DNA from: a virus
IMG/VR virus record: IMGVR_UViG_3300032289_001431
Coordinates: 8,532-72,531 of that record
DNA: 64,000 bases
Direction: 5' to 3' (one strand)
Shown here: positions 58,366-63,999 of the stretch, piece by piece
Position numbering within the stretch: position 1 is the first letter of the stretch
How the letters are laid out: the number at the start of each line of letters is the position of its first letter
Notes under the pieces: generated by a model
Told to the model about the DNA's origin: nothing
Databases searched by the model: none
Seen by the model: the letters and a program-made list of their open reading frames with translations, nothing else
Made by a program: the position numbers and the translations under genes

Positions 58366-58638
58366 TTACCAGCATGGATATCTGTATGCACCGTTCCATT
58401 GCCAACCACCACCGCCCCAACCACTAGTCCATGGAAAACCGCCATAAAAACCTCTGTAATAAGGAAATGTCCAATATGGTGCGTATGTGTTTATGATAGT
58501 AGTTGGTTGTGATGCTGGTGCTACCCCTTTAACCGTATTGCCTGTTACAGTATTTGTATAATTACCTCTTACACTACCATCGATGTTATATGTACATGAA
58601 GATAATATTAAACATGATATTATGAATAATATTTTCAT
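58366..58638 (-). CDS. Small lipoprotein with Gly/aromatic tail
   Basis: MKILFIISCLILSSC lipobox; YYRGFYGGFPW..GWGGGGW. Confidence 0.6.
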   Translation of the reverse strand: MKILFIISCLILSSCTYNIDGSVRGNYTNTVTGNTVKGVAPASQPTTIINTYAPYWTFPYYRGFYGGFPWTSGWGGGGWQWNGAYRYPCW

Positions 58639-59273
58639 TAAGCTACGTTTCTAATAATCCAAAAACCAAAACTACTTAACTTTTCCGAAAATTTTCTTAT
58701 TACTTTAGAGATAAAATTCCAAAAGGCATACCAATGAGAAAAGGTTATTCTATTCAAAAACTTTCTGATTTTGGTAGAGATTTTCTTATTATGATCTTCG
58801 GCTAATTTTTTCCAATGAGCTTCATCTTTATCAACCTCTTGCTTGGTTCTATTGATTTCACATTTAATTGTTTGAAACTTTCCTTTTAAAGAACCATCAA
58901 CAATTTTTGCTTCAAACTCTATCCACCATTCATTTCCGTTTTTATCAACCAAAATGTCATAAAAAAATATGTTACCAGTATGGTTGACAATGATTTCTTT
59001 TCTGGAAGTTTCTTTGAATTCGTAAGGCCACACCCAACGATTCTTCTTACGTTCTTTCTTTTCTTCTGCTTCGGTCATGATGCGGACATGATCACCTTCG
59101 ATCCTTGTGGTATAGAGTTTACCGTTTTTCTTTAAAGTATAAACTGCTAGACTATTATCAAGATCTTTGGTTTGAAATGGTTGATGATTCCAATCAATGT
59201 GAGAGAAAATCTCCTTTTGTTTTTTGTTGAAAGGTAATTCCTTGTGTATAAAGATAGTGTCAAACATTCCCAT
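58638..59273 (-). CDS. Hypothetical phage protein
   Basis: MGMFD, FQTKDL, HTG.I.FY, WIEF.A..VDG. Confidence 0.7.
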   Translation of the reverse strand: MGMFDTIFIHKELPFNKKQKEIFSHIDWNHQPFQTKDLDNSLAVYTLKKNGKLYTTRIEGDHVRIMTEAEEKKERKKNRWVWPYEFKETSRKEIIVNHTGNIFFYDILVDKNGNEWWIEFEAKIVDGSLKGKFQTIKCEINRTKQEVDKDEAHWKKLAEDHNKKISTKIRKFLNRITFSHWYAFWNFISKVIRKFSEKLSSFGFWIIRNVA

Positions 59274-59279
59274 AATTTA

Positions 59280-59699
59280 TTAATTTATCAGATTTCTATT
59301 ATTTGTCAAGAAATGTTTTTCCCTGTGACAATTTGCACAAAGTACTTCGCATTTTTGAATTTCCAATAAAACAGTTTCCCAAGAACATCTACCAACAGCC
59401 ATTGATGCTACGTCAAAATTTTTATCATCGTTTTTATGATGAAAATCTAAAACATACCAACGGTTTTCATTACAATTAATACATTTTAACGTTTTTTTAT
59501 AATCTATATATTTTTGTTTTTGATTTTTTTGATATTTTTTTCTAGTTTCTAATTCATTTTTTATATTTTTTTTAAAATCTTCTATTCTTCTTTTTTTAGA
59601 ACAAGTTTTACAATAAGATTGTAATCCATTTAATTTTTTATTATTTTTATAAAATTTTTCTTCGGATAGTAATTCTAAACATATTGGACATTTTTTCAT
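59280..59699 (-). CDS. HNH endonuclease with zinc fingers
   Basis: CPIC, F......G....CKTC, C..C, LDFHH, EIQKCEVLCANCH. Confidence 0.85.
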   Translation of the reverse strand: MKKCPICLELLSEEKFYKNNKKLNGLQSYCKTCSKKRRIEDFKKNIKNELETRKKYQKNQKQKYIDYKKTLKCINCNENRWYVLDFHHKNDDKNFDVASMAVGRCSWETVLLEIQKCEVLCANCHREKHFLTNNRNLIN

Positions 59700-59715: not shown

Positions 59716-59789
59716 TGGTGGAGGATTAGGGAATTCAACCCTAGACTCCGCAGTGCAAGTGCAGCGTTTTAGCACTAAACTAATCCCCC
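59716..59789 (-). tRNA. tRNA-Ala(UGC), CCA encoded, C19-G56 elbow
   Basis: GGGGGAT/ATCCTCC acceptor with G3-U70; anticodon arm CTGCA-CTTGCAC-TGCGG; T arm TAGGG-TTGAATT-CCCTA. Confidence 0.88.
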
Positions 59790-59794
59790 GAAAA

Positions 59795-60247
59795 TGGTGG
59801 AGGTGAGGAGAGTTGAACTCCTGTCCAAATAATCTAACCTAAAAGGTCTACATGTTTTAGTATCTTTAGCATTTCAGCCACCATACGGTGACGAAGACTT
59901 TAGGCTGCTTGGCGATACTAACCGAGTTTTTAGTCTGCCTATAGACATTATCGCAGTCTATATACGGTTGATATTTTATTGTTACATCAGAACTACCAAC
60001 AATCTGACTTCCTCTGCTATCAATTAACCCTTAGAGGATCTAGGTTAAAGGTCTTAGGCTGCTAAGAGGTATTCCTCTTCAACGCCAACGAGATACTCGT
60101 CAGCATTGTTGAAGATATGCTCGGCTTCAGCCAAGATGGAGTCAGTATTGTCTGCTCTTAATCTTTCAATCGATTTTTTACGAGGCCATCGATCAACCTC
60201 GACATGCACTTTTAGTTTCAACTATCTGTCGAAACCAGTACACCCCC
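59795..60247 (-). ncRNA. ssrA: tmRNA; predicted tag ADNTDSILAEAEHIFNNADEYLVGVEEEYLLAA*
   Basis: 5' GGGGGTGTACTGGTTTCGAC and 3' GGACAGGAGTTCAACTCTCCTCACCTCCACCA, with G3-U in the acceptor; tag frame 60155-60054 ends LAA-TAA. Confidence 0.92.
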
Positions 60248-60269: not shown

Positions 60270-60344
60270 TGGTACACGAGGAGGGATTTGAACCCCCGAC
60301 AGGTTCGGTGTAAACGAACTACTCTACCCCTGAGTTACTCGTGT
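60270..60344 (-). tRNA. tRNA-Val(UAC), CCA encoded
   Basis: ACACGAG/CTCGTGT acceptor; GTTCG-TTTACAC-CGAAC; T loop TTCAAAT. Confidence 0.9.
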
Positions 60345-61035
60345 GTATCTTATTACTTAATATCTTAAGCTCTTTTTGGATATTGTCAATTATAATTTTT
60401 TGTTCACCACCAAGATTTACATCTTGTGTTATTGCATCATAATCAGTTCCTACGTATGCTTGTATCTCATCATTGATTACATTACGAGCATAACCAAGAT
60501 CAATTAATGTGTTTTTCATTTTATTGAAAATGCTTTTTGGTAATTTTTTAATAATCAAATTAGCTTGTTTTTTATAATGAGGATACAAATAATAAAAAGC
60601 ATGACACACTTCATGATCGATTATATCTTTTTTATGTGGTTGAGATGCTATGATATAATATCTATCATTCGATTTTATTTTTTTTCTAATATCGGAACAT
60701 ATATCTTCAAAAACTTTATCATAAATATTATAATCCCAGTTATCGACATTAACATTAAAAACATTAAAAAAGTTTTCAATTACATTTGATGGTATATTAA
60801 AACCAGACCAATCAATAGGATAAGAAAAAAACTCTTCCCCACGATGAAAAGTATATAGTCTCTGAAAATCTATCATATTAAAAACTTTACCTCTTATTTT
60901 TTTAAATGGAGATTCGTAAAATTCTTGAACCCTACAAAAAGTCATCGTAAGGTCGTATGAATTGTCTATTGTTACTAAAAATATCTTTGGGTGTATTTCT
61001 GTAATTTTGTAATTAATTTTTATATTTTTATCCAT
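60319..61035 (-). CDS. HExxH-containing hypothetical protein
   Basis: F.RVQEFYESP, WSGFNIP, IDHEVCHA, DEIQAY; stop lies inside tRNA-Val. Confidence 0.7.
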   Translation of the reverse strand: MDKNIKINYKITEIHPKIFLVTIDNSYDLTMTFCRVQEFYESPFKKIRGKVFNMIDFQRLYTFHRGEEFFSYPIDWSGFNIPSNVIENFFNVFNVNVDNWDYNIYDKVFEDICSDIRKKIKSNDRYYIIASQPHKKDIIDHEVCHAFYYLYPHYKKQANLIIKKLPKSIFNKMKNTLIDLGYARNVINDEIQAYVGTDYDAITQDVNLGGEQKIIIDNIQKELKILSNKIHTSNSGVE

Positions 61036-61669: not shown

Positions 61670-62668
61670 TTATATTTTAGTCGAATCTCCAGAAAATACA
61701 ATATCATCTTCTGTGATTCCGTTGATATTTCCATTAGAAATATAAAGACGAATAACATCTTTCATTTCATCTAAAGAATTATAAGTCCTAATTTGATTGA
61801 TAAAAAGTTTATAGATATTTAAAGTTTCTAATACATCACATTTATTAATGATAAGTTTAGTTACACCAGAAAGATTGATAGCTTGTAATAACAGTGGAAC
61901 ATTAAGATAATTTACAAGTCTTTTTCTATTGGTAGTAGTACCAAATTCTTTTCCTTCTTCTATAATCTTATTAAGTTCATCATTATCCCAAAGCGATTCG
62001 GGAAATAATGGATCTACTCCACTTTTAGTATCATATATTTTTACAACCCCAATAATTTCACGAATCTTTTTTGGAGAAAATCCAAGAGAACATGCGTTAT
62101 GTGGGAAAGTTTCAGAACTTGTTACATATGGATAAACTCCATAATTGATATCCAACCAGATTGATTGTGCTCCTTCGCATAATACTTTTCCATATATTTT
62201 TCCATCCCATAGATAATTTGATGTGATATAGTTTTTAATCTGTAAGCCAGAACGAACCATTTTATCAGCATAACAAGGCGCAATACCTTGACCTGTTGTT
62301 CCAAGTTTAGGTTTGAGTACATTTAAATCATACGATATATGATCGTTTGTAATAACATGAGCATTTGGATGGATTTTAACCAAAGACGTATCAAACCCGT
62401 TTTCTTTAAGATATTGGATTTCTTCATAAAATTTATCAATATTAATTACACAATTAGGACCGATAATAGAAGGTTTTCCGTGAAAAATACCACAAGGAAT
62501 TAAATGAGTTTTATATTTTTTCCCATCTAAATAAACAGTATGACCAGCATTCGGTCCACCGTTCCAACGACAGACCATATCATAGTCTTTCGCCATTGCA
62601 CTTGAAATTTTACCCTTGCCTTCATCACCCCAAGCAAGACCAACAATAACATCAACGTAATCAATCAT
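61670..62668 (-). CDS. purA: Adenylosuccinate synthetase (short form)
   Basis: WGDEGKGK, NGGPNAGHT, GTTGQGIAPCYADK, EGAQ, YPYVTSS, EFGTTTNRKR, NKCDVL. Confidence 0.92.
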   Translation of the reverse strand: MIDYVDVIVGLAWGDEGKGKISSAMAKDYDMVCRWNGGPNAGHTVYLDGKKYKTHLIPCGIFHGKPSIIGPNCVINIDKFYEEIQYLKENGFDTSLVKIHPNAHVITNDHISYDLNVLKPKLGTTGQGIAPCYADKMVRSGLQIKNYITSNYLWDGKIYGKVLCEGAQSIWLDINYGVYPYVTSSETFPHNACSLGFSPKKIREIIGVVKIYDTKSGVDPLFPESLWDNDELNKIIEEGKEFGTTTNRKRLVNYLNVPLLLQAINLSGVTKLIINKCDVLETLNIYKLFINQIRTYNSLDEMKDVIRLYISNGNINGITEDDIVFSGDSTKI

Positions 62669-63261: not shown

Positions 63262-63999
63262 TTATGCACGAACCGATGAAAGAGATCCAGTATTTGTAAC
63301 AAATACTCTATAACGTGTTCCGTTTGCACTCTTAAGAATTACTGATGAATTTGAATCAGCAACTTCCAATGCATTTACATATGTAAAGTTAGCAGAAAGA
63401 GCAGTTACATTAGAACCAATGATGTGTGCATTGTTAATTATATCAATGGTGTTATTATATCCACCGAGAATTGAACTACAAAATGAATCACCAATAATGC
63501 AGTTGTTAGTACCACCAGCAATTACCGTAGATTGACCATCAATTATATTACAACATCCAGCACCGATAAAGGAATAACCACAACCAGTTGTTATGGGATT
63601 TTCATTGATAATGTTACAAAATCCACCTGCAATTGTGTCGTATTGATTATTAACAAGATTACAATATCCACCACTTACGGTTGAATAACAACCACTTGCA
63701 GTATTACAACGACCACCGCCTACGGTTGAAGCACCGCTACTTGCAGTATTACCCTGACCACCACTTACGGTTGAATTATAATAACTTGCAGTATTACTAT
63801 ATCCACCACTTACGGTTGAACCACTACAACTTGCAGTATTACTATGTCCACCACTTACAGTTGAAGCATTACCACTTGCAGTATTATCTCTTCCACCACT
63901 TACGGTTGAAAAACAACAACTTGCAGTATTACCACATCCACCACCTACGGTTGAATAATAACCACTTGCAGTATTAAAATATCCACCACCTACGGTTGA
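63262..63999 (-). CDS. Fibre/adhesin-like protein, C-terminal part (5' end outside window)
   Basis: Open frame with STV(S/G)GGxxNTASxxx repeats, ending ...VILKSANGTRYRVFVTNTGSLSSVRA*; absent from the ORF track because it runs off the edge. Confidence 0.85.
   Translation of the reverse strand, partial: STVGGGYFNTASGYYSTVGGGCGNTASCCFSTVSGGRDNTASGNASTVSGGHSNTASCSGSTVSGGYSNTASYYNSTVSGGQGNTASSGASTVGGGRCNTASGCYSTVSGGYCNLVNNQYDTIAGGFCNIINENPITTGCGYSFIGAGCCNIIDGQSTVIAGGTNNCIIGDSFCSSILGGYNNTIDIINNAHIIGSNVTALSANFTYVNALEVADSNSSVILKSANGTRYRVFVTNTGSLSSVRA

What the first reader, a model, noticed from the sequence alone, without database searches (positions are those of the whole stretch)
59795..60247. 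Phage tmRNA of 453 nt with an unusually long 33-residue acidic tag
Seen: a complete tRNA-like domain and a frame GCA GAC AAT...TTA GCA GCC TAA giving ADNTDSILAEAEHIFNNADEYLVGVEEEYLLAA. Known: E. coli tmRNA is about 360 nt with a 10-codon tag ending YALAA, the ClpX degron. Inference: the degron is kept, but a roughly 20-aa acidic amphipathic insert could change adaptor or protease routing of rescued proteins. It is co-transcribed with a tRNA-Ala(UGC) that reads the predicted GCA resume codon. No smpB is seen in the window.
Basis: partly seen in the sequence, partly recalled or inferred. Interest (0 to 1): 0.7.

Follow-up and report, generated by a model that had tools for sequence, protein, structure and literature searches.

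The report
Phage tmRNA with long conserved tag
A large freshwater phage carries its own ribosome-rescue RNA (tmRNA) whose tag peptide is three times the usual length and is kept almost unchanged across many related phages, so the tag body probably has a function of its own.

Summary
Rfam finds a full-length tmRNA at 60247..59795 on the minus strand (144.6 bits, E 1e-56). Its tag frame reads ADNTDSILAEAEHIFNNADEYLVGVEEEYLLAA.

The window is part of a T4-like myovirus record.

Seventeen IMG/VR contigs and 62 protein clusters carry the same RNA, with 32-35-codon tags. The RNA structure covaries strongly.

- A stands at -4 in 18 of 18 genes.
- There is an in-frame one-codon indel.
- pN/pS is 0.26 in frame, against 1.87 and 1.01 out of frame.
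- pN/pS is 0.13 for codons 2-17.

No SmpB, ClpP or Lon was found, even in a 99%-complete relative, so host factors must be used.

The tRNA-Ala adjacency is not conserved. The host is unknown. No bacterial genome of 185,579 species encodes the tag core.

ARAGORN calls none of the 13 intact genes.

The scan's first readers noted this same family on other genomes.

Verdict: a real gene, and a new variant of a known kind (phage-encoded tmRNA). Interest is moderate.

The parts
59795..60247 (-). tmRNA (ssrA) gene, 453 nt, one-piece, CCA encoded
   Evidence: Rfam RF00023, 144.6 bits, E 9.9e-57, model positions 1-374 of 374. Homologous genes occur in 17 IMG/VR loci. On 10 sequences, 86 pairs in 15 helices are 94.5% paired, and 35 pairs change on both sides, against a shuffle mean of 18.4; 0 of 500 shuffles reach the observed value.
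60241..60247 (-). 5' strand of the acceptor stem (GGGGGTG), with G3 of the G3:U70 alanine identity pair
   Evidence: Sequence. G:U at the third pair in 10 of 10 sequences, with compensatory changes at pairs 4 and 5.
59795..59822 (-). T-arm (stem AGGAG/CTCCT, loop TTCAACT), 3' acceptor strand CACCTCC, discriminator A, and CCA
   Evidence: Sequence. The T-stem and acceptor stem covary (helices 1 and 15).
60166..60201 (-). Pseudoknot 1 (CGAGG/CCTCG and GATCGA/TCGATT)
   Evidence: helices 5 and 6: 3 of 5 and 4 of 6 pairs change on both sides. Rfam aligns this stretch with high posterior probability.
60153..60155 (-). Resume codon GCA, preceded by U at -5 and A at -4
   Evidence: The Rfam alignment places it on the consensus GCA. 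A at -4 in 18 of 18 genes; U at -5 in 16 of 18 and C in 2 of 18. In E. coli, A86 at -4 is required for frame setting (PMC2481249, passages read).
60054..60155 (-). Tag reading frame, 33 codons plus TAA: ADNTDSILAEAEHIFNNADEYLVGVEEEYLLAA
   Evidence: Translation. Variable columns by codon position are 7/9/20. pN/pS is 0.26 in frame, against 1.87 and 1.01 in the other frames. An in-frame one-codon indel follows the GCA.
60011..60047 (-). Pseudoknot 2 (stem TAACCT/GGGTTAA; loop CCTCT pairs with the downstream AGAGG)
   Evidence: helix 7: 6 of 7 pairs change on both sides. Helix 8 is almost invariant.
59864..60008 (-). Region of pseudoknots 3-4: covarying hairpins at tmRNA positions 240-262, 286-308 and 356-371
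   Evidence: helices 9, 10, 12, 14. I did not work out the pseudoknot partner strands. Rfam shows a 107-nt insertion here relative to its model.
60270..60344 (-). tRNA-Val(UAC), 22 nt upstream of the tmRNA
   Evidence: ARAGORN; Rfam tRNA, 63 bits.
59716..59789 (-). tRNA-Ala(UGC), 5 nt downstream of the tmRNA
   Evidence: ARAGORN; Rfam tRNA, 60.3 bits. The adjacency is not conserved in relatives.
60362..60389 (-). Promoter-like site, TTGACA-16 nt-TAAGAT, just upstream of tRNA-Val
   Evidence: The region holds 18 such sites against 16.4 expected from shuffles, so this is only a lead.
59280..59699 (-). HNH endonuclease gene directly after tRNA-Ala
   Evidence: phrog_2255, E 1.6e-28.
58638..59273 (-). 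211-aa phage protein of unknown function, linked to the tmRNA in part of the family
   Evidence: tblastn finds homologues in 8 of 17 family loci. In 7 of them the gene ends 18-30 nt before the tmRNA on the same strand. It has no Pfam, NCBIfam or PHROG family.

Best explanation
This is a working, phage-encoded one-piece tmRNA in a lineage of large T4-like phages. Relatives of the gene lie in contigs of four runs filed as aquatic, freshwater or lake-water metagenomes.

Inferred path:
1. It is transcribed inside a tRNA cluster and trimmed like a tRNA.
2. Host alanyl-tRNA synthetase charges it through the G3:U70 pair.
3. Host SmpB and EF-Tu carry it to ribosomes stalled on broken mRNAs.
4. Translation resumes at GCA and adds the carried Ala plus 33 templated residues ending in LLAA, a ClpX-type degron. 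The ribosome is freed and the truncated protein is marked for host proteases.

Shown here: the RNA family and its covarying structure, the resume-codon context, protein-level purifying selection over the whole 33-codon frame, and the absence of phage SmpB, ClpP and Lon.

Inferred only: charging, SmpB use, tagging, degradation, and the benefit to the phage. The likely benefit is more rescue capacity and amino-acid recycling when host mRNAs are destroyed during infection.

Because the 20-odd residues between the N-terminal ADN and the C-terminal LLAA are conserved as protein, that part is probably read by some factor (an adaptor or a protease). Which factor is unknown.
For: - Rfam match over the whole model, 144.6 bits.
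- Covariation on 10 family sequences: 35 of 86 pairs change on both sides (shuffle mean 18.4; 0 of 500 shuffles reach it), and slid controls give 3-12.
- G3:U70 in 10 of 10 sequences.
- A at -4 in 18 of 18 genes, matching the A86 requirement in E. coli (PMC2481249).
- In-frame TAA three codons upstream of GCA in L007, L038, L040, L048 and L026.
- One-codon indel right after GCA.
- pN/pS is 0.26 in frame against 1.87 and 1.01 out of frame, and 0.13 for codons 2-17.
- 45 distinct tags of 32-35 residues among 63 sequences, all ending [LI][LM]AA.
- SmpB found in 0 of 6 records, ClpP in 0 of 5, and Lon_C in 0 of 5, including a 211-kb record rated 99% complete.
- Contigs from two metatranscriptome libraries of two studies lie only inside the tmRNA, at 59810-60118.
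- AlphaFold2 models tag residues 4-16 as a helix at pLDDT about 90.
Against: - There is no direct evidence of charging, tagging or degradation.
- The RNA-library contigs come from relatives (90-97% alike), and DNA carry-over cannot be excluded. The runs were also found with this gene, so cover restricted to it is partly by construction.
- The host is unknown, so compatibility with its SmpB and proteases is assumed.
- The pseudoknot partners of PK3 and PK4 were not resolved.
- ARAGORN does not recognise the gene.
- Amphipathicity of the tag is only modest: 54 of 2000 shuffles reach the observed 18-residue moment.
Confidence: 0.78

Rival explanations
1. The long tag is not a phage invention. The phages copied the ssrA gene of their still unidentified host, whose own tag is equally long, so nothing about routing is phage-specific.
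For: The tmRNA is 84-88% identical in nucleotides between records whose terminase is only 66, 46 and 26% identical and whose DNA polymerase is 55%, 43% identical or undetectable. That pattern fits a shared outside source or exchange. Phage tmRNAs related to host lineages are described in the literature (PMC9004378).
Against: - A protein-level pattern for the tag core ILAEAE[YH]IFNNA has 0 matches in one genome each of 185,579 bacterial and archaeal species.
- In 401 Verrucomicrobiota genomes, the group with the best 5'-end similarity in my sample, 131 have a match, but none reaches past tmRNA position 108 into the tag.
- All 17 nucleotide-level relatives came from the viral collection. That is biased, because only that collection was scanned with loose patterns.
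- The tmRNA genes are mosaic among phages, and an HNH endonuclease and a group I intron sit at or in them. This fits phage-to-phage exchange.
Confidence: 0.17
2. The gene acts mainly as a decoy. Its tRNA-like domain soaks up host SmpB or otherwise blocks host trans-translation, and the tag is irrelevant.
For: A phage tmRNA reduced to the tRNA-like domain is known (mycobacteriophage DS6A), and such molecules inhibit tmRNA (PMC4131195, passages read). No phage SmpB is present.
Against: The full mRNA-like part, PK1 and the resume context are kept, and the 33-codon frame is under purifying selection at the protein level. A decoy would not need that.
Confidence: 0.03
3. Translation resumes further downstream (for example at GCT GAC GAG), giving a tag of ordinary length. 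The upstream codons would then be untranslated spacer.
For: None beyond the presence of internal Ala codons.
Against: - Codons 2-17 have pN/pS 0.13, with pS 0.42.
- In the first 17 codons, third positions carry 10 of the 17 variable columns.
- The indel after GCA is exactly one codon.
- The internal GCT has C, not A, at -4.
- GCA lies at the usual distance after PK1 and aligns with the Rfam consensus GCA.
Confidence: 0.02

Closest known systems
Bacterial one-piece tmRNA (SsrA, Rfam RF00023; E. coli as the model)
   Same: Shared features: a tRNA-like domain with G3:U70, helix 2, PK1, U/A at -5/-4 before a GCA resume codon, a tag ending in LAA, and then further pseudoknots. The GGCCTCGTAAAAA stretch of PK1 is as in the Rfam consensus.
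   Different: The tag has 33 templated residues instead of 10 (ANDENYALAA, PMC2481249), and the RNA is 453 nt. It is carried by a phage with no smpB. ARAGORN fails on it.
Phage-encoded tmRNAs: mycobacteriophages of the Bxz1 group and Bacillus phage G (PMC4131195); OM43 phage Melnitz and pelagimyophages (PMC9004378); huge phages (PMC7162821)
   Same: These are tmRNA genes carried by large virulent phages, often near tRNA genes, and are thought to sustain translation or recycle host protein (passages read).
   Different: Melnitz and most marine phage tmRNAs are two-piece (permuted); this one is colinear. Some huge phages also carry SmpB; this lineage does not. None of those papers, in the passages I read, reports a 32-35-residue conserved tag. 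Their surveys used ARAGORN, which misses this family.
Extended tmRNA tag of Mycoplasma (27 residues, read by Lon)
   Same: The tag is much longer than the usual 10-14 residues, and its internal residues matter. The M. pneumoniae tag is called unusually long in PMC8403727 (passages read).
   Different: The Mycoplasma tag ends in AFA and belongs to cells without ClpXP (PMC3985003). This tag ends in LLAA, is strongly acidic (8-11 D/E, 0-1 K/R), and is longer still. [quoted passage not shown]

Membership tests
tmRNA (RF00023) | Covariance-model score above the curated gathering score over the full model | tested here: met
   144.6 bits against 47, model positions 1-374 of 374.
tmRNA (RF00023) | tRNA-like domain: 7-bp acceptor stem with G3:U70, T-arm, discriminator A, CCA end | tested here: met
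   Sequence. G:U in 10 of 10 sequences, and compensatory changes in the acceptor and T stems.
tmRNA (RF00023) | Pseudoknot 1 shortly before the resume codon | tested here: met
   Both stems covary (helices 5 and 6).
tmRNA (RF00023) | Resume codon with conserved A four bases upstream | tested here: met
   A at -4 in 18 of 18 genes. The requirement is taken from PMC2481249.
tmRNA (RF00023) | Short open frame translated as a tag, closed by a stop codon | tested here: met
   33 codons plus TAA. pN/pS is 0.26 in frame against 1.87 and 1.01 out of frame. Translation itself was not observed.
tmRNA (RF00023) | Pseudoknots 2-4 after the tag | tested here: inconclusive
   Both PK2 stems were found. Covarying hairpins stand where PK3 and PK4 should be, but their second strands were not assigned.
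tmRNA (RF00023) | Works with SmpB; alanylated; tags stalled nascent chains | not testable with these tools
   No SmpB in 6 of 6 phage records, so a host SmpB would be needed.
ClpX-type ssrA degron | Free C-terminal Leu-Ala-Ala | tested here: met
   The window tag ends in LLAA. Of 45 distinct family tags, 37 end LLAA, 7 end LMAA and 1 ends ILAA. Degradation was not tested.
Two-piece (permuted) tmRNA, as in Melnitz and pelagimyophages | Acceptor 3' half encoded upstream of the 5' half | tested here: not met
   The gene is colinear with the one-piece model from position 1 to 374.
Mycoplasma-type extended Lon tag | Long tag ending in AFA, in a lineage without ClpXP | tested here: not met
   The tag ends in LLAA. 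The host's protease set is unknown.

The most novel reading that the evidence does not exclude
The conserved acidic, helix-prone middle of the tag is a phage-specific label. Proteins cut short in an infected cell would receive a mark read by a factor other than, or in addition to, ClpX. The label would separate these proteins from host-tagged ones, speed their recycling into phage protein, or keep fragments out of virion assembly. The gene would then be a mobile, phage-adapted rescue-and-tagging module that moves between unrelated freshwater phages.
Probability: 0.2. Interest if true: 0.75.

Novelty: new variant of a known kind. Interest (0 to 1): 0.5.

Why it matters
Phage tmRNAs are known, but their role is not understood, and the tag is usually treated as a short degron.

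Here a tag of 32-35 residues is conserved as protein across many phages whose core proteins differ widely (terminase 26-66% identical). That points to a function for the tag body, and it can be tested directly with reporter-tag fusions, ClpXP/Lon assays and pull-downs.

The family also shows a practical gap. ARAGORN, the tool used in the published phage surveys I read, calls none of the 13 intact genes of this family, so counts of phage tmRNAs are underestimates.

Tried and rejected
ARAGORN. Run on the window and on all family loci, it called no tmRNA. I did not find out why.

BLAST against 50,697 deposited phage genomes. The tmRNA and its flanks matched only the flanking tRNAs and the last 30-35 bases of the tRNA-like domain. 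There is no close cultured relative. The DNA polymerase is at most 32% identical to those of T4-like cyanophages.

Host search:
- The genome-contig scan for the tag core gave 0 hits.
- The second scan, with a T-arm pattern, was too generic.
- ARAGORN on those 119 loci gave 103 tmRNAs with tags of 6-28 residues, median 9, and none of 30 or more. This sample is biased and some long calls look like mispredictions.
- The best 5'-end similarity was to two Verrucomicrobiota MAGs. In a sample of 401 genomes of that phylum, matches covered only the tRNA-like domain and PK1. I do not take this as a host assignment.
- A betaproteobacterial MAG shares the first 22 bases exactly. That is too short to interpret.

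Tag as a protein motif. A search for longer proteins carrying the tag sequence found one 136-aa ORF that is probably a spurious read-through.

The 211-aa neighbour. It has no Pfam, NCBIfam or PHROG family. Foldseek against the PDB gave nothing at E <= 0.001. VIA-align matched only the C-terminal long helices, at Z about 5.

Habitat. Sixteen further runs listed hold small shares of the stretch, and most are labelled lake or freshwater metagenome.

Literature:
- Searches for phage tmRNA terms, for freshwater T4-like phage tmRNA, and for four tag fragments found no description of this family (0 papers for the fragments).
- Gur and Sauer 2008 and Ge and Karzai 2009 are not held. What I say about them comes from PMC8403727 and PMC3985003.
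Table S1 of PMC9004378, the list of phage tmRNAs, could bear on novelty and was not seen.
- That tmRNA genes can carry a group I intron in the T-loop (Clostridium botulinum) is recalled, not checked.

Full report
**Observation.** Rfam's covariance model for tmRNA (RF00023) matches window 60247..59795 on the minus strand. The match runs over the whole model (positions 1-374) and scores 144.6 bits against a gathering score of 47, with E 9.9e-57 (repeated on the whole record). The frame 60155..60054 (-) translates to ADNTDSILAEAEHIFNNADEYLVGVEEEYLLAA followed by TAA. tRNA-Val(UAC) lies 22 nt upstream and tRNA-Ala(UGC) 5 nt downstream, both on the same strand. ARAGORN does not report the tmRNA.

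**What the DNA is.** The window is bases 8532-72531 of a 72.5-kb IMG/VR virus record that CheckV rates 34% complete. It encodes the following:
- a T4-type DNA polymerase;
- an SbcC-like nuclease;
- a DnaB-like helicase;
- a large terminase;
- a tail sheath;
- ribonucleotide reductase;
- adenylosuccinate synthetase.

G+C is about 30%. No deposited phage is close. The polymerase is at most 32% identical to those of T4-like cyanophages, and the tmRNA region matches deposited phages only in tRNA-like pieces.

**A family of such genes.**
- Two pattern scans of IMG/VR fetched 52 loci. nhmmer with the window's tmRNA finds homologues in 17 of them. Fourteen are full or nearly full, and three are cut by contig ends. 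The other 35 are chance pattern matches.
- The contigs reach 211 kb. That record is rated 99% complete.
- Gene callers have often read through the tag. A protein search with the window's 55-residue read-through found 62 clusters from JGI, ENA, Logan and NCBI sources. Together with the window these give 45 distinct tags of 32-35 residues.

**RNA structure.** I used an alignment of 10 full-length genes and a structure of 86 pairs in 15 helices. The helices cover the acceptor stem, helix 2, both stems of PK1 and of PK2, several 3' hairpins and the T-stem.
- 94.5% of cells pair.
- 35 pairs show changes on both sides, against a shuffle mean of 18.4. None of 500 shuffles reaches the observed value.
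- Sliding the partners by 1-3 columns gives 3-12 such pairs (RNAalifold).
- The third acceptor pair is G:U in 10 of 10 sequences.
- The pairs that RNAalifold proposed inside the tag region show no compensatory change. Conservation there is therefore not structural.

**Where translation resumes.**
- The Rfam alignment puts the window's GCA on the consensus resume codon.
- The base at -4 is A in 18 of 18 genes. The base at -5 is U in 16 and C in 2. In E. coli, A86 at -4 is essential for frame choice and U85C is tolerated (PMC2481249, passages read).
- Five loci have an in-frame TAA three codons before GCA.
- Family members differ by exactly one codon (GAA or AAA) right after GCA.
- Among 12 distinct tag sequences, variable columns fall 7/9/20 on codon positions 1/2/3.
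- Pairwise pN/pS is 0.26 in the tag frame, against 1.87 and 1.01 in the other two frames. It is 0.13 for codons 2-17 and 0.42 for codons 18-33.

The whole 33-codon frame is therefore selected as protein. Counting the alanine carried by the tmRNA itself, 34 residues would be appended.

**The tag.**
- It has 9 acidic and no basic residues. Across the family the range is 8-11 acidic and 0-1 basic.
- The core ILAEAE[HY]IFNNA[DS]E is nearly invariant.
- All 45 distinct tags end in [LI][LM]AA, the kind of C-terminus that ClpX and ClpA read in E. coli (PMC3985003).
- AlphaFold2 with 38 sequences models residues 4-16 as a helix at pLDDT about 90 and the rest with lower confidence.
- The helical hydrophobic moment is modest: 54 of 2000 shuffles reach it.
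- For scale, the 27-residue Mycoplasma pneumoniae tag is called unusually long beside the 11 and 14 residues of E. coli and B. subtilis (PMC8403727).
- In a biased sample of 103 bacterial tmRNAs called by ARAGORN, tags ran from 6 to 28 residues, with a median of 9.

**Partners.**
- SmpB (PF01668) is found in none of the window's record and five related records, including the 99%-complete one.
- ClpP and the Lon protease domain are found in none of five records.
- The RNA must therefore use host SmpB, AlaRS, EF-Tu and proteases. This is an inference.
- The neighbouring tRNA-Ala(UGC) is not a conserved partner. Of 16 related loci scanned, only L008 has one, about 2 kb away. In L038, L040 and L048 the same-strand neighbours are tRNA-Thr and tRNA-Ser. 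Several loci have no tRNA in reach.
- A promoter-like TTGACA-16-TAAGAT sits just upstream of tRNA-Val, but such sites are no more frequent than in shuffles. Co-transcription is plausible from the 22- and 5-nt spacers and is not shown.

**Expression and habitat.** Four runs were laid. They are labelled aquatic, freshwater or lake-water metagenome and come from four studies.
- All four hold contigs that are 85-99% like parts of the tmRNA, so they carry relatives of the gene.
- Two of the runs are metatranscriptome libraries. Their six contigs (171-246 nt) lie only within 59810-60118, inside the tmRNA.
- This is a weak hint of a stable RNA. Contigs cannot show ends, DNA can be present in RNA libraries, and the runs were found with this gene.

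**Source of the gene.**
- The tag core has no match in one genome each of 185,579 prokaryotic species.
- The best similarity to bacterial tmRNAs in my limited sample is confined to the tRNA-like domain and PK1.
- Between phage records the tmRNA is 84-88% identical in nucleotides. Terminase is 66, 46 and 26% identical, and the polymerase is 55%, 43% identical or not detected.
- The tmRNA genes are mosaic. L049 shares the window's tag (91%) but not its 3' end (65%). L038 shares the 5' part (90%) but not the pseudoknot region (54%).
- An HNH endonuclease follows the tRNA-Ala in the window. In L007 a group I intron (RF00028, 81.5 bits) splits the tmRNA gene in its T-loop.

I read this as a mobile gene exchanged among co-occurring phages. 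A common, unsampled host source is the main rival.

**A linked protein.** The 211-aa ORF at 59273..58638 (-) has homologues in 8 of the 17 family loci. In seven of them it ends 18-30 nt before the tmRNA on the same strand. In the window it lies about 520 nt downstream, behind tRNA-Ala and the HNH gene.
- It belongs to a virus-only family of unknown function: 181 representatives at E <= 0.001, and Atlas clusters that are 97-100% viral.
- It folds with pLDDT 95.5 into a beta domain plus three long helices.
- It matches no solved structure convincingly. In BFVD it matches only uncharacterised proteins of T4-like and jumbo phages.
- Because some of those phages are not known to carry tmRNA, the linkage may be plain synteny. 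It is a lead, not a finding.

**Comparison and novelty.** Phage tmRNAs are established:
- mycobacteriophages and Bacillus phage G (PMC4131195);
- 402 of 18,146 phage genomes by ARAGORN, many of them two-piece marine forms (PMC9004378);
- huge phages, some with SmpB (PMC7162821).

This gene is a member of RF00023, one-piece, and without a phage SmpB. What is new:
- a 32-35-residue acidic tag under protein-level selection;
- its spread across divergent phages (the four runs I laid that hold relatives are labelled aquatic, freshwater or lake water);
- the fact that ARAGORN misses it.

I found no paper describing it. Supplements were closed. First readers of this scan noted the same family on at least five windows of other genomes, and none of those notes had been followed up in the listing.

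**Verdict.** The tRNA-Ala link is not supported. The routing idea is open but made more plausible by the conservation of the tag body. It is a new variant of a known kind, and interest is moderate.

Noticed in passing
L007 3844-4078 (-), inside the tmRNA gene at L007 4511..~3800 (-): In this related phage contig a group I intron (RF00028, 81.5 bits, E 7e-21, full model) splits the tmRNA gene within the T-loop. The rest of the T-stem and the acceptor strand follow about 257 nt downstream.
   Followed up: partly
window 58638-59273 (-); L049 2171-2806, L043 3721-4356, L035 11177-11809, L052 4124-4759, L004 4151-4777, L018 3795-4424: A 211-aa virus-only protein of unknown function is linked to the tmRNA. 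It has a high-confidence model (pLDDT 95.5) with a beta domain plus long helices and no convincing PDB match. In 7 of 17 family loci it ends 18-30 nt upstream of the tmRNA.
   Followed up: partly
L049, L043, L004, L027 (3' and 5' ends of their tmRNA genes): These four genes have a variant tRNA-like domain. The T-loop reads TATCGTA instead of TTCAACT, and the 5' D-loop analogue is shorter (GAAAGGATTCGAC), as if the two had changed together.
   Followed up: no
tmRNA genes of L013, L008, L049, L038 against the window; records G001-G003: The tmRNA is mosaic between phages. It is also far better conserved (84-88% nt) than terminase (66/46/26% aa) or DNA polymerase (55%/43%/none), which suggests exchange between phage lineages.
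   Followed up: partly
window 59280-59699 (-): An HNH endonuclease gene (phrog_2255, E 1.6e-28) lies directly after tRNA-Ala, within the tRNA/tmRNA cluster.
   Followed up: no
window and all 17 family loci: ARAGORN 1.2.41 calls none of the 13 intact tmRNA genes of this family, although Rfam scores the window's gene at 144.6 bits. Surveys of phage tmRNAs based on ARAGORN would miss them.
   Followed up: partly
L063 / G009:C6:21074-21095: A betaproteobacterial MAG with a two-piece tmRNA shares the first 22 bases of the phage tmRNA exactly. This is too short to interpret.
   Followed up: no
window 61670-62668 (-): The adenylosuccinate synthetase gene (PF00709, E 2e-81) is only 332 aa long, shorter than the 416-position Pfam model, and lies just upstream of tRNA-Gln and tRNA-Tyr.
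   Followed up: no
window 63262-63999 (-), open at the window end: This ORF carries UspA1-type adhesin repeats (PF18792, E 1e-16). It may be a fibre or surface-binding protein.
   Followed up: no
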